Below, in pieces: positions 361 through 10,829 of a DNA stretch of 64,000 nt. Location of the stretch: assembly GCA_041671645.1 (NCBI GenBank), contig JBAZBD010000001.1, forward strand, positions 735,234 to 799,233, given 5' to 3'. The notes under the pieces were generated by a model that ran no database searches, was not told the DNA's origin, and saw nothing but the letters and a program-made list of their open reading frames with translations. The translations under genes were made by a program, and so were the position numbers. This DNA is from Patescibacteria group bacterium (GTDB lineage: Bacteria; Patescibacteriota; UBA1384; XYA2-FULL-43-10; 1-14-0-10-43-13). Within the stretch, counting starts at the first letter, position 1; every line of letters starts with the position of its first letter.

Positions 361-745
361 GGGGGTGTATTAGCTTCGACAGCTGGATCTTTGAAAACAT
401 ATCGCAAGCAGGTAAGTCGGTCGCCTTAAAGCGCTGACAAATCCAAGTGCAAACTCACTTGTTAGCAAAGTAAAAGCTGCCTTCGGTAGCCTTAGCTTTG
501 CGCCAGCTTTAGCTTAATTGCTTTAGCCATACGTCCGAGGCTTTTCGACTTCGGGTCACGTGTGTAATATTCGAAATGCAGTTTTATCGGTTTTCAAGCG
601 ACTAAACGTAAGATTTACTTGAGATAGGACAAAAGTTTCTTGGTGACTTTCCAAGCTTAGTCCGAATAAATTGAAGGTCACTACGCTTGTAGAAAATATG
701 TTTCCAACCAGTTGGACGCCGGTGCGACTCCGACCACCTCCACCA
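361..745 (+). ncRNA. ssrA: tmRNA (SsrA, transfer-messenger RNA)
   Basis: 5' GGGGGUG... pairs with 3' ...CACCUCC-A-CCA to give a tRNA-like acceptor with a G3:U70 wobble (the Ala identity element). T-arm-like GGUGCGACUCCGACC precedes the 3' end. An internal tag reading frame ends ...F-A-P-A-L-A then TAA (stop at 515..517). Length ~385 nt is typical for tmRNA. Confidence 0.85.
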
Positions 746-2243
746 TAAGGGAATCTGAACCAGTTTCAGGTTCTTTTTTGTTTGTAATTAGCCTCAAAAT
801 AGGGCTAATTTGAGGGGTGCAAACTTTTTCAGAAAAATTTACAATAATTTCGCCAGGAAATGCTAGCTGTTTGCACTTTGTGCGCTTATCTCTATCAAGC
901 GACCTCCATTTGTTCAGTCCTCCATCTAAAAATTTCAATGAAAAATTCACAAATTCAACAAAGTCTTTGTCGATATCCTCGCTTTCAAAAAGCTCTCTCT
1001 CAAGAAATTTTATGTTCTTTTCAAAGTCATCTAGCACATCCTTAAAATACGGCTCTTTTTGAGGGTCGTCATTTGTAATCATTTTCATACCAATCTGTTT
1101 TTTGTCAGATATGAGCTGATCAAGCCGTTTTTTCATCTCGTCAATTTTGTCGAGCGTGATCTGCTCGTTTTCTTTCCAAACTTCGTTTAACGCTTCGATA
1201 AAGCCGTCTTCCATATCATTTTCAAGGCAAACCTCGCCTAGTTTAATATCAAGGTTAATATGAACAGTTGTGGCGTGGTATTGCTTACCACAACCTCTAC
1301 AGCGGTATTTTGGACTAGTCCAGCCTTTACCATTTCTATGGACAAATCCAACTAACTTTCCTCCGCACTCACAACGACCGATATTACCCAGGGGAAATTC
1401 TTTCCGATCATTTTTCCGCTCGAAAATTCGTTTTTTACCAGAAACAACAGCTTTCAACTCTTCGAATTCTTCAATCGAAATCATAGGTTTGTGTAACCCT
1501 TTGAGGCCGTGAAATTCTTGTGAATCCCATTTCTTAACAGTAATCAGCCCAGCATAATAATCTTCAGCAAGTATCTCCCTAAATCTGTCAATGCGGAGGA
1601 TCTTCCCTGTTGTTGTGCGATATCCATTGTTCGTCATATTAACAAGTGCTTCACTCACAGTTGATTGACCAGTAATTATTTCTCTCATTGCAGATTGCAA
1701 TAAAGGGAAGCGAATTGGATCTGGCTCAAATAGACCAGGTACTGTCGTCCTGCGATACCCCTGATGTATTGGGAAAGGGTAATATCCTGCTTTTACTCTC
1801 CCCTTGAGTCCACTCATAGTTTTCCCAATACGTTCGTCGTTGCTTGCCTCAGCTCGAAAAACTAAAAATAGCTTTTGTAATTTGCTCATCATATCATCAG
1901 TATTTAACTCTGGCTGAGAAGCATACCAAACTTTTACACCAAGTTGTTCGAATTCAGCTTCAAAATAGTAGAAATACTTAATATCTCTCATAAAGCGATC
2001 TACTTCATCAACGATTAGATACTTAACTCGCTTATTTTTCTTGCAAAAATCCATCATCTCAGCAAGATCCTTGCGATTTAAGTTTTTCCCTACCCTACTG
2101 GATTGGTCAAGCGACCATTTTCTTAGAATTGGTGCTTCCAATAATTCCGCAGTTTTTTCTACGTTTTCATCTTGTCTATCCAGACTATGATTAGTCATTC
2201 GCTGTTCTGGTGTAGACACTCTACATAATGCAATCGAATTCAT
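681..2243 (-). CDS. Large serine recombinase (resolvase/invertase N-terminal catalytic domain, recombinase domain, Zn-ribbon); C-terminus overlaps the tmRNA 3' end
   Basis: N-terminal ALCRVSTPEQ catalytic-serine motif; C-terminal CECGG...CRGCG zinc ribbon; 520 aa. The last ~21 codons are read from the antisense of the tmRNA 3' region. Confidence 0.85.
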   Translation of the reverse strand: MNSIALCRVSTPEQRMTNHSLDRQDENVEKTAELLEAPILRKWSLDQSSRVGKNLNRKDLAEMMDFCKKNKRVKYLIVDEVDRFMRDIKYFYYFEAEFEQLGVKVWYASQPELNTDDMMSKLQKLFLVFRAEASNDERIGKTMSGLKGRVKAGYYPFPIHQGYRRTTVPGLFEPDPIRFPLLQSAMREIITGQSTVSEALVNMTNNGYRTTTGKILRIDRFREILAEDYYAGLITVKKWDSQEFHGLKGLHKPMISIEEFEELKAVVSGKKRIFERKNDRKEFPLGNIGRCECGGKLVGFVHRNGKGWTSPKYRCRGCGKQYHATTVHINLDIKLGEVCLENDMEDGFIEALNEVWKENEQITLDKIDEMKKRLDQLISDKKQIGMKMITNDDPQKEPYFKDVLDDFEKNIKFLERELFESEDIDKDFVEFVNFSLKFLDGGLNKWRSLDRDKRTKCKQLAFPGEIIVNFSEKVCTPQISPILRLITNKKEPETGSDSLMVEVVGVAPASNWLETYFLQA

Positions 2244-2640
2244 AAAATCCTTTGTAAATTAACAAAAATGGCAGTCTCTTGGGTACTCCGCACGGTTACG
2301 GAAAGAGGCTGCCATTGCTGGCTCCAAAATTTTACCGTTTTAGTATGTACCCACTTAACATTCTAATACTTATTCATTCATCTTTTAACACCTCCTTCAC
2401 AATTTCTTTATTATTTTTATATAAACCATACAAAAATCTAGCCCAGTCCTTGAGATGTGCTTCTTTCTCGACTTTCGTCATTTCTAGATTTTTGTTTGTT
2501 AATGGTTTCATTTTGAATAAATAAGCCCCTTAGTAAGAGGCAACTTAATCTAAGAGGCTTATTAAAAGAAATTTTATTGCCTACAAAAATATCCTCTGAG
2601 AAGAGGATATAGCATTGTATGGGAGTGCAAAAATATAGTA

Positions 2641-3282
2641 TCAGTGTGGATCGGCGTGATCTTTTATCTCCAATGAGAGGGTAACGTTACCACTATTTGA
2701 AGAGATTTCATACTTATTTAAGGAGGTTCTTTTTCTAATTTCAGCAACAGTATCTTTGATCTTTCTCGTATTCTCTGCTTTGCACCCTGGTGCTTTGGCA
2801 TCTATAAGTCCCAATAATCTGAGAGCTCTGGCTCTTGTTATCTTTTTACTTTTCACCAACGCTCCGAAAAGTAGACTTGTATTTTTGCCTTCTGTGAGCC
2901 TGAATTTCTTACCTTTTATATTTCCCCTGCCTGTTACCGACGAGTACCAGCAATCAGCATCAGAAACAATGCTATTGTTCTGTTCAGTCTGACTAATACC
3001 GTTAAACATATCTAAGTATTCACTATAAAATTCCTGGTACACATAAATTACATAATTCCTGGAGCTACAATAATTAAACGGCTCCATTATCTCAATTATC
3101 TTTAGAGCACCACGTTCCTCAAGCCATTTTAGTACGATTTCAAGATCACTTATTGGAAATTCAGGATTTTCTTTTGAGAATTGTATATCAGAAATTATTA
3201 TCGTCTCTTTTTCCTCAAGAGTTCGACATTCATCTATATGATTCAGCACTATCCCAATTTTTTTATATGCAGCTATGCTCAT
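2641..3282 (-). CDS. Hypothetical protein (island cargo), possible C-terminal HTH
   Basis: 213 aa ORF, AT-rich, no recognisable catalytic motif. Basic C-terminal segment ITRARALRLLGLIDAKAPG. Confidence 0.5.
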   Translation of the reverse strand: MSIAAYKKIGIVLNHIDECRTLEEKETIIISDIQFSKENPEFPISDLEIVLKWLEERGALKIIEIMEPFNYCSSRNYVIYVYQEFYSEYLDMFNGISQTEQNNSIVSDADCWYSSVTGRGNIKGKKFRLTEGKNTSLLFGALVKSKKITRARALRLLGLIDAKAPGCKAENTRKIKDTVAEIRKRTSLNKYEISSNSGNVTLSLEIKDHADPH

Positions 3283-3564
3283 TTGTTGCCTCTTTTTTCT
3301 ATTTATTGAAAATATATCCTATTTGTGGCAATATTAAAATAAGTTGAAATTTATTTCAGCTTAATACAATCTATATGTGCCTAACCCCAAATAGTAATAT
3401 TTGGGTATGGTATTAAATCCTCTACTAAATGAAGACGGCTTTCCGTCCATACTTTTAGTAGAGGTCTATATTCGAAAGGATATAGGGTAAGTTCCGAAAG
3501 GGGCTGCCGTGGCGGAAGGCCATTTTTGTATTCAATTTTAGTTCTAAAATAATTAAGGAGGCAA

Positions 3565-3750
3565 ATGCCAAAAGAAGAAAAAGAGAAGAAACCTGTTTGG
3601 AAAAAGTGGTGGTTCTGGGTCATCGTCGTGATTGTTATTATATGTTTGATTCCCAAGGGCTCAATAGAGAAAGCTACGAACAGCCTTGATTCAACAAACG
3701 ATAAACTCAAGGGCACATCAGATCAGATTCAAACTGAGCTTAAGAAATAG
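3565..3750 (+). CDS. Small membrane protein (1 TM)
   Basis: Strong RBS AAGGAGG 7 nt upstream; hydrophobic core WWFWVIVVIVIICLI; 61 aa. Confidence 0.5.
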   Translation: MPKEEKEKKPVWKKWWFWVIVVIVIICLIPKGSIEKATNSLDSTNDKLKGTSDQIQTELKK

Positions 3751-3762
3751 AAAGGAAATCTT

Positions 3763-4425
3763 ATGGCTGTATTCTTTACGTTAATGCTATTCGTTTCAAT
3801 TGTTGTTCTAGTTCTTGGATTGATTAGTCCAAAAATAATCAATAAATTCATCAAAAATGAGAAGAAACACTTCGATCGCAAAAAGGTGGGGAAGGTTTTC
3901 GGCTTGATTACTATTGGATTCTTTATTTTGACTATGATTTCAATTATCGTTCCAGCCGCTAAAGAAGATGCTAAAAAGGAATCGATCAGCCAAGACAAAT
4001 CCGTTTCTGATAATCTTTGGATTGCCTTGGATAATGCGACCAACTCAAGGAATGGATATTCGGTCGATTATTACGCATTGAATAAAAGCGTGATGATTAA
4101 AAAAGAGCCTGACACTGCTTGGGACGACAATACTTTTGTTATGACTGCTTATCAAACATATGTTAAGTTTGGCAAAACAGCCTTCAGTATTGAAGGTGTA
4201 GACTCAGTTAGTTTTATCTGGTGGGCAAATATGATTGATAGCAAGGGGCAATCAGAAAAATCAAAAGGGATTCAGATTGAGATGACAAAAGAACAATTTT
4301 CTCAATTCAACTGGGATAATCTCGTTGGGAGAAACATATATGAACAGATGCAACCATATCAATGGATTCATACAGGAATATTAAATAAGTTGAACAAGGA
4401 TAAACTAATTTTGCTTACTGTGTAG
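3763..4425 (+). CDS. Membrane protein with two N-terminal TM helices and an extracytoplasmic domain
   Basis: 220 aa, RBS present, two hydrophobic helices then a soluble domain. Tightly follows the 3565 ORF. Confidence 0.6.
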   Translation: MAVFFTLMLFVSIVVLVLGLISPKIINKFIKNEKKHFDRKKVGKVFGLITIGFFILTMISIIVPAAKEDAKKESISQDKSVSDNLWIALDNATNSRNGYSVDYYALNKSVMIKKEPDTAWDDNTFVMTAYQTYVKFGKTAFSIEGVDSVSFIWWANMIDSKGQSEKSKGIQIEMTKEQFSQFNWDNLVGRNIYEQMQPYQWIHTGILNKLNKDKLILLTV

Positions 4426-4427
4426 TA

Positions 4428-4961
4428 CTATACTTTTAATATTTTCTTCTCGTTCATAATATTTTTCATACTTTCTTCTCGCTCGTACGCTTTAATAATC
4501 ACATCGAGCATTCTTTGTTGTTTTCTATAATATTCTAAAGGATTTTGATCAATCAATTCTTGCTCTTGCTGGTTTCTCATCCCTTGCTCTTTAATCTCGG
4601 CCTCTTTTCGTTCGATGATTCTCAACTTATCTTCTGGGTATGATTTCATATGAAGTTCGTGGAGTTTGCCGACAAGCGTGCCTATTGTGTATGCCGTTTT
4701 CGAATCCATCAAACCATTGGCATCTACTTGTCTGGTTCTGCTTATAGTGTCTTTTAAGAGCATCTCAAGGCCTTCTGAAGTTGATAGATCAATCGGATCG
4801 ACAACAACCTTAGCAACGCTCTTATTGGCTAACCCACCTATCTTCACGGCTCGGAGATGTTTTTTCTTACTGGCTGGATCGTGAGAAAAACAAAATTTGC
4901 TTCCGCTTACCGAGAAAGCCCCACACTGCTTACCGTCCGATTTTGTATATTGGCATTGCAT
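4428..4961 (-). CDS. Zinc-finger (C-x9-C...C-x2-H) plus coiled-coil protein, third gene of the AAA/S8 operon
   Basis: N-terminal CQYTKSDGKQCGAFSVSGSKFCFSHD; C-terminal charged coiled coil. Starts 28 nt downstream of the S8 gene stop on the same strand. Confidence 0.55.
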   Translation of the reverse strand: MQCQYTKSDGKQCGAFSVSGSKFCFSHDPASKKKHLRAVKIGGLANKSVAKVVVDPIDLSTSEGLEMLLKDTISRTRQVDANGLMDSKTAYTIGTLVGKLHELHMKSYPEDKLRIIERKEAEIKEQGMRNQQEQELIDQNPLEYYRKQQRMLDVIIKAYEREESMKNIMNEKKILKV

Positions 4962-4988
4962 AAATAATTAGAATGACTAGTCAAGTTA

Positions 4989-7358
4989 CTAAGCTTCCGC
5001 AGACACTACTTCAATCGGCAAAGAAATTTCAGTTGCAACCTCGAATTGGCCAGTCTGAATTATCGATTCCCTAATATTATTTGATCCCTCTTTGTCGATT
5101 ATGGTGAGCACAAAAGAATAGGGCTGTTTGATATTACCTGGACTACCTAAGTTTTGTTTTTCATATTCTGAATAAACATTCATACTAATGTTGATCTGGA
5201 GAAACGGAGTTTTAACCGCCATTTTTTGACCCTGGAAATGAATTACATTAAATTTCTGATTTTTATAATTCTCCCAATTCCATTGACCATTTTTGGGGTT
5301 GACGTTATCAGGCTTATTCCCTTCTTCCCCATTTTCATCGATTGTAGGCTCCATTATTCGCACCGAAGCACCTACTTCAATCATATTATAGTTTTTTGGG
5401 AAATTTTTATTTGTTGGAGGATTATAGACAAGTGTAAAAATAAATCCAATATTTTTACCAACAAGATTCTGAGGCAATTCAATATTTAGCTTATGCTTCT
5501 TGTTATCATTCTCCAAAATATCACAATACATAAAGGTTACCTTGTTTTCGTCGTCATCCTGAATCGGAATTGACCAGTCTGGTATTCCAAAACCATATGC
5601 CTTTTTAACTGAATCGCTTGTTATCCGTGTTTGTTCTCTTAACGAAGTAGAGTGTATTAATAAAGATTTAACAAGATTAACACGATTCTTCCTTATATCT
5701 AGAACATTGGGAATATTGGAATTAATTATATAGTCATATAGAAGAGCGGATTGTCTTGCAATAAGTGGAGCACTAAAGCTAGTACCAATATCTTTAGACA
5801 GGCCATTCATATCTATTCCTTCAACACCAAAGGAATTGCTCGATGCGGTCAAAAAAGGTCTCTGGTATGAGCCTGAGGGATCTATTTTAATATTTCCACC
5901 GCTTTCTACTAATTCTGGCTTTTTGATACCTTCTGCATATCCGCTTTTTCCGTATCCGCCCCTTCGTGTAAATGGCGATGGGAGGCCTTTTCCACAATAA
6001 CAATCAGCTGACGCATCAGCAGCAATCGATCCAACAGTCAGTACATTCAATGCATCTCCAGGCGAGGCAACAATAGCAGAAAGATTACAATCATCAAAAA
6101 TTTCTTCATATTTATTGCCAGGATAACAAGTATTATTTCCAGCACTACAGACAATAAGAATATCTTTTTCTCTTGCAATTTCATCCACCTTCGCAGTCAA
6201 ATCACTTACATCATCTTCTTCTATGCTTTTATTTTCATTAATTGATAGATTATATACAAAGACATCCGAGTGTCGATTTGCGACATTCTCAATTGCTTTT
6301 GTTATCTTAGTAGCATCTTTGTAATTTGAGTTAGGGCCAAAAAGAATCTGAGAATCGATTATTTTAGATATGGGAATCAGTCTCCTGTTGGCAGATATTT
6401 GCCCAGTGATATTATCGCCGAATAGAAGTCTACTTGCGACAAAAGTGCCGTGATTATTGTCTATGCCCTGATTGGCAAGCAGAGAATTATATTGAAGTGA
6501 TACAAATTTATCTATTAATGGATGCTTGATACCACTATCGATAACGGCAACAGTTTGCGATGTATCCACCTCGCCTAGTACAACTTCACTTAAATCAACA
6601 CCGCTAATACTCCTCTGCAGATTAAACTTTGGCGAGATTTTAATTTTATTGATAAAATTAAAACTTATTTCTGATAATAAGCTGTTTATTTCCGCTACAT
6701 ACAATTCAGCTCCATACAGCAGATTATAAACGAAAAAGTCTTCATCGAGCATAAACACTTTTCCAGAACCCAACCGCTGAGATAATTTTTGATATATTTC
6801 ATTATATTCTGGCCTTAGCCTATCTTGAGTTATTTCAATAATACAGTCTATTTTTTCGTTAAATACATTATCACAAAGTTCACGAATAGCCCTGTCCATT
6901 CTTATATCATTGCTGGTATTAACATCTTGGATACTTGAAATCGCATATACCTCTCTGGAGAATTTAACTCTTTTTCTCGAGCCTCCCTCCTTTGCAATTT
7001 CAAAAGAACACGAATCCATAACTTCTCGTAATTTTTTGAAATCACTTTTCTTACCAGCTAATTTATAAGTAAATTCATCTCTTGATGCCACAACATCCAA
7101 ATTTGATTCTTTCCATAGTTCGCTTGGCCTATTTGACTTAGACCTAACCTCATCAATCAATTTTATTTCTGCATAAACTTTGTCGTCTTCTGCTAGCGGC
7201 AAATCCACAATACTTTGAGCTGAATTTTTCAGGTCTCTAATGCGTATCCGATAATCAGCAACATTATCGAAGCCACACCAAAATTTTTCCCAGTAAGCTC
7301 CGAAACCCGTTTTTTGCTCTTTATCAACTTTTTTCTTTGGAATTAAAATATTGCTCAT
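4989..7358 (-). CDS. S8 family subtilisin-like serine peptidase (IetS-like)
   Basis: Catalytic triad motifs in order: VAVIDSGI (Asp), HGTFVAS (His), GTSFSAPLIA (Ser). 789 aa with a long N-terminal extension. Start overlaps the stop of the upstream AAA gene by 4 nt. Confidence 0.85.
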   Translation of the reverse strand: MSNILIPKKKVDKEQKTGFGAYWEKFWCGFDNVADYRIRIRDLKNSAQSIVDLPLAEDDKVYAEIKLIDEVRSKSNRPSELWKESNLDVVASRDEFTYKLAGKKSDFKKLREVMDSCSFEIAKEGGSRKRVKFSREVYAISSIQDVNTSNDIRMDRAIRELCDNVFNEKIDCIIEITQDRLRPEYNEIYQKLSQRLGSGKVFMLDEDFFVYNLLYGAELYVAEINSLLSEISFNFINKIKISPKFNLQRSISGVDLSEVVLGEVDTSQTVAVIDSGIKHPLIDKFVSLQYNSLLANQGIDNNHGTFVASRLLFGDNITGQISANRRLIPISKIIDSQILFGPNSNYKDATKITKAIENVANRHSDVFVYNLSINENKSIEEDDVSDLTAKVDEIAREKDILIVCSAGNNTCYPGNKYEEIFDDCNLSAIVASPGDALNVLTVGSIAADASADCYCGKGLPSPFTRRGGYGKSGYAEGIKKPELVESGGNIKIDPSGSYQRPFLTASSNSFGVEGIDMNGLSKDIGTSFSAPLIARQSALLYDYIINSNIPNVLDIRKNRVNLVKSLLIHSTSLREQTRITSDSVKKAYGFGIPDWSIPIQDDDENKVTFMYCDILENDNKKHKLNIELPQNLVGKNIGFIFTLVYNPPTNKNFPKNYNMIEVGASVRIMEPTIDENGEEGNKPDNVNPKNGQWNWENYKNQKFNVIHFQGQKMAVKTPFLQINISMNVYSEYEKQNLGSPGNIKQPYSFVLTIIDKEGSNNIRESIIQTGQFEVATEISLPIEVVSAEA

Positions 7359-8446
7359 TTTATATTATCCCTTAGTGTTGTATACGGCATCGATGTTATG
7401 TCAGATATTTCTTTAATGGAATACCCCTTGTCTTTTAGTAATTGACATACCTTATAAGATTGTTTTTTTTCGATTAAAGGCTTACTGGAAAAATCCAAAA
7501 TATTTTTCAATGCAAAAGTATTATCAATAATCTCAATCTTTTCCAAAATTGCTCTTTTTTTCATATGTATAACTATGTCCGAGATTGCCGATCCACTCAG
7601 CCCTTCTGTGAGATCTGCTAAGAGCTCAAAATCTAACTTATGTCTGAACTTATCAATAAATAGCTTTATTAATTGTTTCCTGGCTGGCTTGGAGGGCACT
7701 CCCAAACTGATTCTCAAAGGAAATCTTCTCCAAATGGCCGTATCCAGAAGTCCCTCGTGGTTTGTCGCTCCAATTATTATTGAATTTTGCGGAAAAGAAT
7801 CAATGTTTTGTAACAAAACTGTTACTATCCTCTTCAACTCTCCGAGCTCTTTCTCATCAGCTCTGTCTTTTGCAATAGTATCTATCTCATCAAGAAAAAT
7901 CAGAACTTCTTGTTTCTTTGCGATATCAAAAATATCTTTTATGTTTTTACCAGTTTTGCCTAGATAAGAAGAAATTAATTCATCTAATCTAACAAGGACT
8001 AATGGTAAATTTAATTTATTTGCTAAACCATATGCCAGCTTTGTTTTTCCTGTACCAGGAGGACCATAAATTAACAATTTATTAGTTGGACTTATACCAA
8101 AATCGCTTAATTTTATCCTATTTTCCCACTCTATTAGAAAATTCTTGATTTTTTTCTGATTCTCGATATCAAGTACAACCTCCTCTAGAAGAATCTTCGA
8201 TTCAATATATTCAACTAACGATTCGTTTTTTGATGAATATATCTGGTGATCGTTTTTTACCGATTGAAAAGAATACGCTTTTTTATCAGGGATTTTGGAA
8301 AGTAAATTTCTAAGCCGTCTGGAAACAATATTCTGACCCATTTTCTTTCTTTTCTCAATTTCTCCCTCAAGTATAGAAATGATTTTTTTATTATCGCTCT
8401 GAATAAAAGCACTGGCGATATCTTCAATAATTTCGACGCTTGACAT
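7355..8446 (-). CDS. AAA+ ATPase (classic-clade AAA, IetA-like)
   Basis: Walker A GPPGTGKT; Walker B IFLDEID. A Vps4/spastin-like segment SSYLGKTGKNIKDIF. 363 aa; translationally coupled to the S8 peptidase. Confidence 0.85.
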   Translation of the reverse strand: MSSVEIIEDIASAFIQSDNKKIISILEGEIEKRKKMGQNIVSRRLRNLLSKIPDKKAYSFQSVKNDHQIYSSKNESLVEYIESKILLEEVVLDIENQKKIKNFLIEWENRIKLSDFGISPTNKLLIYGPPGTGKTKLAYGLANKLNLPLVLVRLDELISSYLGKTGKNIKDIFDIAKKQEVLIFLDEIDTIAKDRADEKELGELKRIVTVLLQNIDSFPQNSIIIGATNHEGLLDTAIWRRFPLRISLGVPSKPARKQLIKLFIDKFRHKLDFELLADLTEGLSGSAISDIVIHMKKRAILEKIEIIDNTFALKNILDFSSKPLIEKKQSYKVCQLLKDKGYSIKEISDITSMPYTTLRDNIK

Positions 8447-8579
8447 ATTCGTACCCTCCTCCGTTATTTTTACCTCAATTACATTGTAAATTTATTAGTA
8501 CGAAAAATCAACCGATGAACAATTCCGTATTTTATTCTTGGTAAGCAAAAATAATATCCATCACAAATATTCAATGATC

Positions 8580-9536
8580 TTATGGATTAGGAGTTCTTTC
8601 GATTATTTCATCTAGCAACATATATGTATAAATTATTATTTTTTGAGCAACTTCCTTTGTAATTGAGTGTTTATCTCCTTTTGCTTCCAGTCTTGTAACC
8701 GAATCAATCAACTCACATACATATTCGGACGTATCACGTGCTACAGAGTCCTCTATTTTTTTCCCTTTCATAAACTCTTTAATCCTCAGCCTATAGTGTT
8801 CAGTATCAAGCTTAATCACCTTACCATCTCTTGTTGTTGTCGTTTCGTTAGAGGGAGGATAAATAATATCAGCAATTCTTATAATTATTCTTCTGCAACC
8901 ACTTGCGACATTCGACCAGTCTGGTTGATTATCAGAATTGGCAGATTTGTAAGCCGTGACTAATTCTTGCAAAATTTCTGGCACTTTGTTCTTCATCTCT
9001 TTCTCGACAATGTCTCTAATCTCAGAAAAGATGTCTGAAGCAGCCTCACTAAAACTTAACGCATTATATACATCCGCTATAAAACAATATAGCCGTCCTC
9101 TAATACGAGACAGAATTGACTGACTTGTCCTAATAGATTCAGAAATTGTATTTCTTTCAAATGCATTACTATGTGGCACATAAGTTGAATACTGGCTTGA
9201 TGACTGAAATGATATATTTGGGTCATTGGCTACGCTTAATCTAATTTTCAGAGTATCTATGGTGTTCTCAAGTACCTCAACGTGATCTAGTCTATAGATA
9301 ATTTCTTTACCAACCGTCCAGTATCTACCATTTGCTACTATATTGTCCTTGTCACCAGCAACATATTGGTTAAGAGTCCCAGTAATCTCTTTTTCGATCC
9401 AAATTTGATTCTTCGTGTCGTTCACAAGCCGAGCCAACAGAGCACCTTTTTGCAAAAGTATGCTAAGTTTACTACCACCAAAGGTTTCCAAAATCTCAGT
9501 AGCCAAAGTTAGTGCTTTTTTGTGATGGTCTTTCAT
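8580..9536 (-). CDS. Hypothetical protein (island cargo; possible abortive-infection-type protein)
   Basis: 318 aa, no recognisable motif. Located in the AT-rich island upstream of the AAA/S8 operon with its own upstream region. Confidence 0.55.
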   Translation of the reverse strand: MKDHHKKALTLATEILETFGGSKLSILLQKGALLARLVNDTKNQIWIEKEITGTLNQYVAGDKDNIVANGRYWTVGKEIIYRLDHVEVLENTIDTLKIRLSVANDPNISFQSSSQYSTYVPHSNAFERNTISESIRTSQSILSRIRGRLYCFIADVYNALSFSEAASDIFSEIRDIVEKEMKNKVPEILQELVTAYKSANSDNQPDWSNVASGCRRIIIRIADIIYPPSNETTTTRDGKVIKLDTEHYRLRIKEFMKGKKIEDSVARDTSEYVCELIDSVTRLEAKGDKHSITKEVAQKIIIYTYMLLDEIIERTPNP

Positions 9537-9834
9537 AATTTTAAGAATAAACCCTGATGTTCATTATTACAAGTTATTATTAAGTGCTAATACTGTCTGG
9601 GATCTACTGAACTTAAAGCAAGTTTATATTTCCCATATTCAGAATGAAGAACTTCTCGCCATCGCCTCGATTCTTCAATGATAAAATGCAAATTTTTACG
9701 CACCAGTACCACCAAAAAATGATCAGATTTATTTTGGTCTTTTTTTGTTGCATAACATCTTCAGGCATTACTCAGTTTGCTCATTTATAATCATCTTAGG
9801 GTCGATAAGATAATAATAAATAAGAAGGAGAATT

Positions 9835-10299
9835 ATGAAGAACAAGAAGATTTTACTTTCCGTGACCGCGCTGACACTGGCCGTAGCTGGTGCAGTCTGG
9901 TACGGCGGGAACAAGGTACTAGCGGCAAACGGTGTTGGACATGACGCAATGGTCTCGACATTATCAGAGAAACTTGGTGTGCCAGAAGACAAAGTTACCG
10001 CGGCATTCGATTCGATCGAAACACAGCGACAGGCAGACAGAGTAGCAGAGCGAAAAAACCAGCTCGATAAAGCTGTCTCGGCCGGCGTGATTACACAGGA
10101 GCAGGAAGATAAGCTGGTAGCGAAGCACGCGGAGCTTCAAGCAGACAGAGAAAAGGAACGCACGGAGCTTGAGCAATGGTACAAGGATAACGGTATTGAT
10201 CAGAGCAAGCTGTCTGAATATACCGGACGCGGAGGAATAGGTATGGGGCAAGGTATGGGTAGAGGAATGGGCGGCCAAGGGCATATGGGCGGAATCTAA
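9835..10299 (+). CDS. Secreted protein with signal peptide and Gly/Met-rich C-terminus
   Basis: RBS AAGGAG; N-terminal MKNKKILLSVTALTLAVAGAVW signal-like sequence; GC ~50%. Confidence 0.6.
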   Translation: MKNKKILLSVTALTLAVAGAVWYGGNKVLAANGVGHDAMVSTLSEKLGVPEDKVTAAFDSIETQRQADRVAERKNQLDKAVSAGVITQEQEDKLVAKHAELQADREKERTELEQWYKDNGIDQSKLSEYTGRGGIGMGQGMGRGMGGQGHMGGI

Positions 10300-10310
10300 T
10301 AAGTAATATG

Positions 10311-10336
10311 AAACACCTCACATATGTGAGGTGTTT
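10311..10336. terminator. Perfect 26-nt palindrome (AAACACCTCACATATGTGAGGTGTTT), likely a terminator hairpin
   Basis: Perfect inverted repeat immediately after the 9835..10299 stop. No strong T-run follows. Confidence 0.3.
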
Positions 10337-10421
10337 CTGTATTCCGTCGCCAAATTTTTAAATTCTTGACATATGTGGTAGATTGCTCCTAAGCACTCTA
10401 CGCACACTGGGAGGCAAAAAT

Positions 10422-10829
10422 ATGAACGCACAAGAACTGCTTGACAAGGGATACTGGTATGAAGGCGAATATGCCTATCTCTCTACTCCAGAATGGCGCA
10501 AATGGGAAAAGTTGATCGAATGCATCAAGAAAGACAGCGATAAGACTGTCTGGAATCTGATCAAACTTGCCGAGAGCTGTGTCCGCCCATTCACAGCCGC
10601 TTCTCAGCGCTTAGACGAAATAATCGAGGCTTCGCCGAAGTACCAGGATTCTTTTGCAAACGACCCGCTTGACAGCGCTTTCTTCGAAAGAGTTCGCGAC
10701 TACGCTCAGATGCTGAGAGACGAGGACGATCTGACTGCCGACAACGAGTACGTCATCCACGAGCTCATCCTCGAGGTTGGGCCAGGCGAACCGGGCCGAT
10801 GCGCCCTGTACTACAAGTTAAATCGCTGA
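10422..10829 (+). CDS. Hypothetical protein
   Basis: RBS GGGAGG before ATG at 10422 (the ORF track starts at 10383). Followed by a hairpin plus T-run terminator at ~10838..10875. Confidence 0.55.
   Translation: MNAQELLDKGYWYEGEYAYLSTPEWRKWEKLIECIKKDSDKTVWNLIKLAESCVRPFTAASQRLDEIIEASPKYQDSFANDPLDSAFFERVRDYAQMLRDEDDLTADNEYVIHELILEVGPGEPGRCALYYKLNR

What the first reader, a model, noticed from the sequence alone, without database searches (positions are those of the whole stretch)
4428..8446. Operonic AAA+ ATPase / S8 subtilase pair (IetAS-like) with a trailing zinc-finger coiled-coil gene inside a tmRNA-integrated island
Seen in sequence: three minus-strand genes are tightly packed. The AAA gene ends in an ATGA overlap with the S8 start, and the 177 aa gene starts 28 nt after the S8 stop. 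The ATPase has Walker A GPPGTGKT and Walker B IFLDEID. The protease has a complete S8 triad (D in VAVIDSG, H in HGTFVAS, S in GTSFSAP) plus ~250 aa of N-terminal non-catalytic sequence.
Established knowledge: a two-gene ATPase plus S8-protease antiphage system (ietAS) was described in the Gao et al. 2020 defense screen, and such pairs cluster in islands.
Inference: this is an IetAS-type abortive-infection module. The third, conserved-looking zinc-finger/coiled-coil gene may be an uncharacterised accessory or trigger component, which would make this variant undescribed.
Basis: partly seen in the sequence, partly recalled or inferred. Interest (0 to 1): 0.75.

Follow-up and report, generated by a model that had tools for sequence, protein, structure and literature searches.

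The report
IetAS defence pair on mobile island
The ATPase and protease genes are an ordinary two-gene IetAS toxin-antitoxin/antiphage module carried as swappable cargo on a small mobile island beside the tmRNA gene of a Patescibacteria bacterium. The zinc-finger gene behind them belongs to the island's own backbone and is not a third part of the defence system.

Summary
Three packed minus-strand genes lie in a low-GC island next to a tmRNA gene and a large serine recombinase gene.

The 363 aa and 789 aa proteins match the PADLOC IetA and IetS profiles at 1e-96 and 1e-70. Their Walker A and B motifs and the S8 catalytic residues (D274, H303, S527, plus N408) are intact. This is a canonical two-gene IetAS pair from a divergent Patescibacteria clade.

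- A sister island (L001) keeps the zinc-finger gene at 82% amino-acid identity, together with the whole backbone.
- In L001 the slot holds RosmerTA-like, Old and Type III restriction-modification genes instead of IetAS. DNA homology resumes one base upstream of the zinc-finger gene's ATG.
- None of 8 related IetAS loci has a zinc-finger homolog.
- None of 81 other zinc-finger loci has IetA or IetS.

The zinc-finger protein belongs to a family of at least 416 cluster representatives. The family sits in phages and integrative elements, usually between a primase gene and an integrase gene. Its function is unknown; I infer a DNA-binding regulator of the element.

Verdict: a new member of a known kind, of low to moderate interest. 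By-products: a cargo-swapping island family in Patescibacteria, and LOOT RNA recurring in these elements.

The parts
361..745 (+). tmRNA gene (ssrA). The island lies directly 3' of it.
   Evidence: Rfam RF00023, 99.4 bits, full model 1-374. ARAGORN did not report it.
681..2243 (-). Large serine recombinase (520 aa), the island's integrase. Its last 21 codons are antisense to the 3' end of the tmRNA.
   Evidence: Pfam Resolvase 1e-14 and Recombinase. 52% identical to the L001 recombinase and 43% to the L056 recombinase, both also next to a tmRNA gene.
2641..3282 (-). 213 aa backbone gene of unknown function.
   Evidence: No Pfam or PADLOC hit. 32% identical homolog at the same position in L001.
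3378..3505 (+). LOOT RNA (RF03000), a structured RNA of unknown function within the backbone.
   Evidence: 71.5 bits against a gathering score of 46.4. Present at the same position in L001 and in six further Patescibacteria mobile-element loci.
3565..3750 (+). 61 aa backbone gene. A single hydrophobic helix is visible by eye.
   Evidence: Called gene in L002. tblastn finds a homolog in L001.
3763..4425 (+). 220 aa backbone gene, convergent with the zinc-finger gene. Two N-terminal hydrophobic helices are visible by eye.
   Evidence: 61% identical homolog at the same position in L001; dN/dS 0.20.
4428..4961 (-). 177 aa CCCH zinc-knuckle plus helical/coiled-coil protein. It is the most conserved backbone gene of the island and not part of IetAS.
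   Evidence: Homology to L001 runs from window 4962 across the whole backbone block. 79-82% amino-acid identity and dN/dS 0.12. Family of 416 representatives. Family contexts are phages and integrative elements. It never occurs with IetAS elsewhere.
4989..7358 (-). IetS, an S8 subtilase (the toxin/effector of IetAS), 789 aa.
   Evidence: PADLOC IetS PDLC02197 at 9.8e-71, covering residues 55-679. Pfam Peptidase_S8 at 1.2e-29. D274, H303, S527 and N408 conserved.
7355..8446 (-). IetA, an AAA+ ATPase (the antitoxin/regulator of IetAS), 363 aa, with a GGAGG ribosome-binding site upstream.
   Evidence: PADLOC IetA PDLC02196 at 1.1e-96, covering residues 3-362. Pfam AAA at 1.9e-30. Walker A and B present. 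ATGA overlap with ietS. Ribosome-binding site seen.
8580..9536 (-). 318 aa protein with an AbiTii-like N-terminal domain. Probably a separate single-gene cargo item, 133 nt upstream of ietA.
   Evidence: Pfam AbiTii 27.9 bits against a cut-off of 27.6; PADLOC AbiTii 3.1e-08. Absent from the other IetAS loci.
9580..9726 (-). Conserved segment on the far side of the cargo slot. It contains a short reading frame (9587-9715) conserved at the protein level with L001.
   Evidence: blastn gives 73% identity to L001 12-159. The translations align and share the stop position. GC rises to host level from about 9900.

Best explanation
Window positions of about 746 to 9800 are a roughly 9 kb mobile island. 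It sits directly 3' of the tmRNA gene of a Patescibacteria (CPR) bacterium and carries a large serine recombinase gene.

The island has two parts:
- A conserved backbone: recombinase, 213 aa gene, LOOT RNA, 61 aa gene, 220 aa gene and the 177 aa zinc-finger gene.
- A variable cargo slot at about 4962-9580. Here it holds an AbiTii-like gene and a canonical two-gene IetAS module.

By analogy with characterised homologs, IetS is a subtilisin-like protease that is toxic when free, and the AAA+ ATPase IetA, translated from the same transcript, keeps it in check. Phage infection, or loss of the island, would release the protease, and the cell stops growing or dies. That gives abortive infection and also stabilises the island. 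This mechanism is inferred, not shown here.

The 177 aa gene is the first backbone gene after the slot. It lies 27 nt downstream of ietS with no predicted terminator between them, so it is probably read through from the cargo. It works for the element rather than for IetAS. The most likely role is a zinc-dependent DNA-binding regulator of the element's integration or replication switch (inference, low confidence).
For: IetAS identity:
- PADLOC IetA 1.1e-96 and IetS 9.8e-71 over almost the full lengths.
- Pfam AAA and Peptidase_S8 matches.
- Catalytic residues conserved.
- The A-then-S order with overlapping or abutting genes is kept in all 8 related loci.

Island:
- tmRNA gene, serine recombinase gene and a GC step.
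- The window matches a Patescibacteria MAG contig of 867,751 bp.

Backbone and cargo:
- L001 is collinear from the tmRNA gene to the zinc-finger gene. Homology resumes at window 4962, one base before the ATG, and again at 9580-9726.
- Between those two points L001 carries RmrA-like M78 plus DUF4411, Old, and Type III methyltransferase and restriction genes.

The zinc-finger gene is independent of IetAS:
- A family HMM finds no member in 8 IetAS loci.
- IetA and IetS HMMs and tblastn find nothing in 81 further zinc-finger loci plus L001. 29 of those loci have at least 3.5 kb upstream, enough room for the pair.

The zinc-finger family belongs to mobile elements:
- 17 of 20 loci with at least 3 kb on both sides contain an integrase, 9 serine and 8 tyrosine.
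- The recurrent order is primase, zinc-finger gene, small HTH or 254 aa ORF, serine recombinase, then tmRNA or tRNA.
- In phages it precedes ParB/methylase, TerS and TerL.

Mechanism from the literature:
- IetS is the toxin and IetA the antitoxin on pTiC58, and the protease is needed for antiphage activity (PMC13069673).
- An AAA/S8 pair of the same sizes is a functional toxin-antitoxin module in mycoplasmas (PMC8562856).
Against: - No att repeats, inverted arms or displaced tmRNA 3' fragment were found, so the island ends are approximate.
- Only one sister island with the same backbone was recovered. The cargo-swap argument rests on that one comparison plus the family-wide statistics.
- The zinc-finger gene is probably co-transcribed with ietAS: the gap is 27 nt, no terminator is predicted and it has no obvious ribosome-binding site. 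A functional link specific to this lineage cannot be excluded by genomics.
- The function of the zinc-finger protein is unsupported by any structural or profile match.
- The antiphage mechanism of IetAS is unknown even in model systems.
Confidence: 0.85

Rival explanations
1. The three genes form one system: an IetAS variant in which the zinc-finger/coiled-coil protein is an accessory sensor, trigger or regulator, comparable to the helicase in ietHAS.
For: Same strand, a 27 nt gap after ietS and no predicted terminator. Three-gene IetAS variants do exist: ietHAS has an essential SNF2 helicase.
Against: No co-occurrence outside this one sequence: 0 of 8 IetAS loci and 0 of 81 further zinc-finger loci. 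The closest homolog (82%) follows a Type III restriction gene in a collinear island, and homology starts one base upstream of the zinc-finger gene's ATG. The gene downstream of ietS differs in every relative. The family's usual neighbours are primases, integrases and terminases.
Confidence: 0.04
2. IetAS serves here mainly as an addiction (post-segregational killing) module that stabilises the island in the chromosome, not as a phage-defence system.
For: IetAS was first described as a plasmid-stabilising toxin-antitoxin pair on pTiC58. The homologous AAA/S8 pair is a functional toxin-antitoxin module in mycoplasmas. This island is minimal, with no replication or transfer genes found, so stabilisation would be selected.
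Against: The slot holds recognised defence genes in both islands: AbiTii-like here, and Old, Type III restriction-modification and RosmerTA-like in L001. Other relatives sit beside Type I restriction-modification, NERD and Fic genes. IetAS protects against phages experimentally. The two roles are not exclusive.
Confidence: 0.2
3. The 177 aa protein is the recombination directionality factor (excisionase) of the tmRNA-targeting large serine recombinase.
For: In at least 9 loci it lies 0.3-1.2 kb upstream of a large serine recombinase gene on the same strand, within elements abutting tmRNA or tRNA genes. It is the most conserved backbone gene. Known factors of this kind for serine integrases are small and diverse (general knowledge).
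Against: The family is found about as often with tyrosine integrases (8 against 9 of 20 loci). In phages it sits in front of the packaging genes. Such breadth is unusual for a factor specific to one integrase. No structural or profile similarity to any known factor was found.
Confidence: 0.12
4. The AAA+/S8 pair is a housekeeping proteostasis system of the host rather than mobile cargo.
For: AAA+ ATPase and protease pairs do act in protein quality control in general.
Against: The pair lies in a low-GC segment between a tmRNA gene with a recombinase and host genes of higher GC. It is absent from the collinear sister island. Relatives are patchily distributed and flanked by integrases and restriction-modification genes. 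The profile matches are specifically to IetA and IetS.
Confidence: 0.01

Closest known systems
IetAS (ietA/ietS) of Agrobacterium pTiC58 and the IetAS antiphage system of the Gao et al. 2020 screen
   Same: An AAA+ ATPase gene directly upstream of and overlapping a subtilase gene of about 750-800 aa. Strong full-length matches to the PADLOC IetA and IetS profiles. Intact Walker motifs and S8 triad. Carried on a mobile element.
   Different: The host is a Patescibacteria (CPR) bacterium. IetS belongs to a divergent clade: at most 43% identity to its nearest relatives and under 30% to proteobacterial and firmicute members. It lacks detectable matches to PF27210 and PF27160, which the more distant homologs carry. 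No activity has been tested.
Mycoplasma mycoides TA132/133 AAA-ATPase/subtilisin-like toxin-antitoxin module (PMC8562856)
   Same: Nearly the same sizes (353 and 757 aa against 363 and 789 aa), the same order and operon structure, and a small-genome host.
   Different: It was shown experimentally to be a toxin-antitoxin pair, whereas this one is only predicted. I did not measure sequence similarity between the two.
ietHAS, the three-gene IetAS variant with an SNF2 helicase (PMC13069673)
   Same: A precedent for IetAS recruiting a third, essential gene.
   Different: The third gene there is a helicase that recurs with the pair. Here the third gene is an unrelated zinc-knuckle protein that never recurs with IetAS and belongs to the island backbone.
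Defence hotspots of integrative elements and satellites (P4-like satellites, PICIs, SCCmec-linked defences)
   Same: A conserved integrase-bearing backbone with one slot in which different defence systems are exchanged between related elements.
   Different: It uses a large serine recombinase whose gene reads antisense into the tmRNA 3' end. The host is CPR. The element is about 9 kb, and no replication, packaging or transfer genes were detected.
DUF5763 / zf-C3Hc3H type CCCH zinc knuckles
   Same: The N-terminal pattern C-x9-C-x10-C-x2-H gives weak hits in 9 and 6 of 40 family members.
   Different: All hits fall below the curated thresholds, and the window protein itself does not hit. The conserved helical domain (residues about 60-107) has no match.

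Membership tests
IetAS two-gene system | AAA+ ATPase matching the IetA profile | tested here: met
   PADLOC PDLC02196 at 1.1e-96, residues 3-362 on profile positions 3-368 of 374. Pfam AAA at 1.9e-30.
IetAS two-gene system | S8 subtilase matching the IetS profile, including the N-terminal non-catalytic region | tested here: met
   PADLOC PDLC02197 at 9.8e-71, residues 55-679. Pfam Peptidase_S8 at 1.2e-29.
IetAS two-gene system | ietA immediately upstream of ietS on the same strand | tested here: met
   ATGA overlap at 7355-7358. The same order is kept in 8 related loci.
IetAS two-gene system | Intact catalytic residues (Walker A and B; Asp-His-Ser triad and oxyanion Asn) | tested here: met
   GPPGTGKT at 128-135 and IFLDEID at 183-189. 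D274, H303, S527 and N408 conserved in alignment A5.
IetAS two-gene system | Toxin-antitoxin behaviour and protease-dependent phage protection | not testable with these tools
   Known only from homologs (PMC13069673; PMC8562856).
   0 of 8 IetAS loci (HMM with --max). 0 of 81 further zinc-finger loci contain IetA or IetS.
   In L001 the zinc-finger gene stays with the backbone while IetAS is replaced by other systems. Homology resumes at window 4962.
tmRNA-associated integrative genomic island | Abuts the tmRNA gene and encodes an integrase | tested here: met
   tmRNA at 361-745. Large serine recombinase at 681-2243. The same arrangement occurs in L001, L011, L014, L056, L069 and L016.
tmRNA-associated integrative genomic island | Composition differs from the host, and content varies between relatives | tested here: met
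   Island genes have GC 0.32-0.40, against about 0.51 in the two ORFs that follow and 0.44 for the window beyond 10000. The cargo differs in L001.
tmRNA-associated integrative genomic island | Defined att sites or an empty site in a related genome | tested here: inconclusive
   No direct repeat, inverted arms or tmRNA remnant were found. Serine integrases need only a very short shared core, so absence is not decisive. No empty site was available.
AbiTii (upstream 318 aa gene) | Match to the AbiTii domain above the curated threshold | tested here: inconclusive
   27.9 bits against a cut-off of 27.6, N-terminal half only. PADLOC 3.1e-08. No AbiTi partner was seen.
Phage small terminase (considered for the 177 aa protein) | It is the small subunit directly preceding TerL, with no other TerS present | tested here: not met
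   In the phage loci a separate TerS (PHROG hits at about 3e-08) lies between the family member and TerL. Most of the large downstream ORFs are recombinases or methylases.

The most novel reading that the evidence does not exclude
The 177 aa CCCH zinc-knuckle protein founds an undescribed family of regulators, or recombination directionality factors, in Patescibacteria phages and integrative elements. It sits at the edge of a defence-cargo slot, so cargo transcription reads into it. That would couple expression of whatever defence system is loaded to the element's decision to excise or replicate.
Probability: 0.12. Interest if true: 0.5.

Novelty: new member of a known kind. Interest (0 to 1): 0.3.

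Why it matters
This adds a clear IetAS example in the reduced-genome Patescibacteria. It also shows how such bacteria acquire defence genes: on a small island next to the tmRNA gene, with a serine recombinase and an exchangeable cargo slot.

The result carries a caution. Tight packing on one strand suggested a three-gene system, but a single comparison with a sister island showed that the third gene belongs to the vehicle and not to the cargo.

The by-products may help people annotating mobile elements in uncultured bacteria:
- a widespread zinc-knuckle family that marks Patescibacteria mobile elements;
- LOOT RNA recurring in those elements;
- recombinase genes that read into tmRNA and tRNA genes.

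Tried and rejected
1. Small terminase idea. Many zinc-finger family members are followed by an ORF of about 430-560 aa, so I suspected a TerS-TerL pair and a phage-satellite reading. Pfam and PHROGs showed those ORFs are large serine recombinases, ParB-methylases or unknowns. Where a TerL is present, a separate TerS is also present. Rejected.

2. Structure of the 177 aa protein. The AlphaFold2 model is confident (pLDDT 95). Foldseek against the PDB and BFVD gave nothing with E at or below 0.001. The afdb50 library was unavailable.

3. Attachment sites. I found no direct repeats, no local alignment of the tmRNA 3' end to the far end, no Rfam hit at the far end at E of 1 or below, and no inverted arms above the shuffle background.

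4. The search for related loci in genome contigs. The single IetS protein found nothing. The 40-sequence zinc-finger alignment was too diverse to use. The trimmed alignment gave one locus. The metagenome scan was the productive one.

5. Promoter scan. It is uninformative in this AT-rich DNA: 44 sites against 31 expected.

6. Literature. A search found almost nothing on LOOT RNA.

Full report
**1. The observation**

The three minus-strand ORFs are at the stated coordinates: 7355-8446 (363 aa), 4989-7358 (789 aa) and 4428-4961 (177 aa).
- The first two overlap in ATGA.
- The third starts 27 nt after the S8 stop codon.
- All quoted motifs are present: Walker A at 128-135, Walker B at 183-189, and VAVIDSG, HGTFVAS and GTSFSAP containing D274, H303 and S527.

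Rfam finds a complete tmRNA at 361-745 (99 bits), which ARAGORN missed. A 520 aa large serine recombinase gene (681-2243, minus strand) runs antisense into the last 65 nt of the tmRNA gene. The genes from 681 to 9536 have GC 0.32-0.40. The two ORFs that follow (9835-10829) are at about 0.51, and the window beyond 10000 averages 0.44. The exact protein sequences occur in an 867,751 bp contig of a 'Patescibacteria group bacterium' MAG.

**2. The ATPase and protease pair is IetAS**

- The 363 aa protein matches PADLOC IetA models at 1.1e-96 over nearly its full length.
- The 789 aa protein matches IetS models at 9.8e-71 over residues 55-679, so the N-terminal non-catalytic region is part of the family.
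- Pfam gives AAA (1.9e-30) and Peptidase_S8 (1.2e-29, residues 268-591).
- In a 20-sequence alignment of IetS homologs D274, S527 and the oxyanion N408 are invariant, and H303 is at least 90% conserved.
- The nearest IetS relatives are 30-43% identical over the full length. The two that carry a source name are also Patescibacteria (a Shapirobacteria and an Uhrbacteria MAG); the rest are unnamed metagenome proteins. More distant proteobacterial and firmicute homologs are under 30% identical.
- In all eight distinct related loci an AAA gene sits immediately upstream of the protease gene, overlapping it or up to 43 nt away.

Every sequence-level criterion for IetAS membership is met.

**3. The third gene is not part of IetAS**

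The word-indexed search found only one close homolog of the 177 aa protein, P0002 (82% identity). Its contig L001 is collinear with the window: tmRNA, serine recombinase, 223 aa gene, LOOT RNA, 61 aa gene, 221 aa gene, zinc-finger gene.

Upstream of the zinc-finger gene, however, L001 carries different genes:
- a Type III methyltransferase (1.9e-86) and restriction enzyme;
- an Old-family nuclease;
- an RmrA-like M78 peptidase with DUF4411.

blastn shows that homology runs from window 3281 up to 4962, one base before the ATG of the 177 aa gene. It resumes only at window 9580-9726. So the segment at about 4962-9580 is an exchangeable cargo slot, and the zinc-finger gene is the first backbone gene beside it. 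It is also the best-conserved backbone gene: 79% amino-acid identity and dN/dS 0.12, against 61% for the 220 aa gene and 52% for the recombinase.

**4. Family-wide test**

An exhaustive phmmer search shows that the protein is not an orphan. There are 416 cluster representatives at E of 1e-3 or below, mostly 100-210 aa, sharing residues 1-120. The shared core is:
- M-x-C-x9-C-x10-C-x2-H-x-P;
- a GG motif;
- a helical LLxDTINRVR...G.MD.KTA..IG.L.GKL domain.

I fetched 81 further loci that encode family members.
- Neither tblastn with the window proteins nor HMMs built from IetA and IetS alignments find the pair in any of them. 29 of these loci have at least 3.5 kb upstream.
- Conversely, a family HMM run with --max on six-frame translations of the eight IetAS loci hits only the window's own copy.
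- The genes downstream of ietS in those loci are all different.

**5. What the zinc-finger family is associated with**

- Of 20 family loci with at least 3 kb on both sides, 17 contain an integrase, 9 serine and 8 tyrosine.
- A recurrent order is: primase (Prim-Pol, RepB or DnaG type), zinc-finger gene, a small HTH_3 protein or a 254 aa ORF, large serine recombinase, then a tmRNA or tRNA gene overlapped by the recombinase 3' end.
- In phage-like loci the gene precedes ParB/methylase, TerS and TerL.
- In another group it lies between a tyrosine integrase and primase/DnaB genes.

I tested and rejected the idea that it is itself a small terminase. Profile searches give only sub-threshold hits to DUF5763 and zf-C3Hc3H. 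A confident AlphaFold2 model (pLDDT 95; a zinc knuckle and five helices, the last two long) has no significant structural neighbour in the PDB or BFVD.

The supported statement is that this is a conserved gene of mobile elements. 'DNA-binding regulator of the element' is inference from position and the zinc knuckle.

**6. Mechanism**

Shown here: identity, architecture, intact catalytic residues, location on a mobile island, and cargo exchange.

Taken from the literature:
- IetAS was discovered as a plasmid-stabilising toxin-antitoxin pair on pTiC58, with IetS as toxin and IetA as antitoxin.
- Protease activity is needed for phage protection.
- ietA mutants could not be constructed.
- The antiphage mechanism is unknown.
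- A three-gene variant with an SNF2 helicase exists (all PMC13069673).
- An AAA/S8 pair of the same sizes is a functional toxin-antitoxin module in mycoplasmas (PMC8562856).

Inferred for this locus: IetA restrains IetS. Infection or loss of the island frees the protease, and the cell arrests. Defence and addiction roles are not exclusive. Because the slot holds recognised defence genes in both islands, I rank defence cargo first.

The zinc-finger gene is probably transcribed by read-through from ietS. The gap is 27 nt, no terminator is predicted and no obvious ribosome-binding site is present. Since this junction is where cargo meets backbone, the tight packing reflects insertion geometry and not a functional unit.

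**7. Limits**

- The island ends are approximate. I found no att repeats, inverted arms or displaced tmRNA fragment, and no empty site was available.
- Only one sister island shares the full backbone.
- Genomics cannot exclude a lineage-specific functional link between the zinc-finger protein and IetAS. I put that at about 4%.

**8. Novelty and score**

IetAS is a described system, so this is a new member from a divergent Patescibacteria clade. The proposed undescribed three-gene variant is not supported.

The side findings are of moderate specialist interest: the cargo-swapping tmRNA island family, the zinc-knuckle family as a marker of Patescibacteria mobile elements, LOOT RNA in these elements, and recombinase genes reading into tmRNA and tRNA genes. 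Genomic islands carrying restriction-modification systems are already reported in Patescibacteria (PMC12455944).

Interest: 0.3.

Noticed in passing
window 3378-3505 (+); L001 9875-10004; L014 3963-4083; L035 4934-5072; L064 5216-5358; L050 7738-7877; L006 10175-10322; L008 15112-15256: LOOT RNA (Rfam RF03000, function unknown) is part of the island backbone. It recurs in other Patescibacteria mobile-element loci, both zinc-finger-family loci and unrelated IetAS loci next to integrase or HTH genes. This suggests it is an RNA of mobile elements in these bacteria.
   Followed up: partly
window 681-745; also L001, L011, L014, L056, L069, L016 (tmRNA) and L029, L053, L078, L090 (tRNA): The large serine recombinase ORFs run antisense into the 3' end of the tmRNA or tRNA gene they abut. 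In the window the last 21 codons are complementary to the tmRNA. The integrase C-terminus may therefore differ between the integrated and excised states.
   Followed up: partly
window 361-745: ARAGORN did not report the tmRNA that Rfam scores at 99 bits over the full model. The tmRNA of this Patescibacteria bacterium appears atypical for ARAGORN's heuristics.
   Followed up: no
window 8580-9536 (-): A 318 aa protein has a borderline AbiTii N-terminal domain (27.9 bits against a cut-off of 27.6) and an uncharacterised C-terminal half. It lies 133 nt upstream of ietA and is not found beside other IetAS pairs. It is possibly an independent single-gene abortive-infection candidate.
   Followed up: partly
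window 9580-9726 (-), short ORF 9587-9715; L001 12-159: A segment conserved at 73% nucleotide identity flanks the far side of the cargo slot. Its translation (..LVRKNxHxIIxESRRWRxxLHxxYxKxKLALxSVxPxQ*) is conserved between the two islands and has the same stop position. It is either a small backbone gene or the 3' remnant of a lost gene.
   Followed up: partly
L001 250-8359: The sister island's slot carries three defence modules in 8 kb: an RmrA-like M78 peptidase with DUF4411 (RosmerTA-like), an Old-family ATPase/TOPRIM nuclease, and a Type III restriction-modification pair preceded by an HTH_17 gene.
   Followed up: partly
L021, L023, L025, L030, L031, L032 and L065 (for example L025 6208-7848 and 7848-8807): A conserved pair of about 550 aa and about 320 aa proteins with no Pfam or PHROG match lies directly downstream of the zinc-finger gene. 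These elements also carry a tyrosine integrase, a primase and a DnaB-like helicase. The pair is an unknown module of these elements.
   Followed up: no
window 4430-4487: An imperfect 29 nt tandem duplication (83% identity) lies inside the 3' end of the zinc-finger gene, where it converges with the 220 aa gene and the two stop codons are 2 nt apart. It is probably chance or a coding repeat.
   Followed up: no
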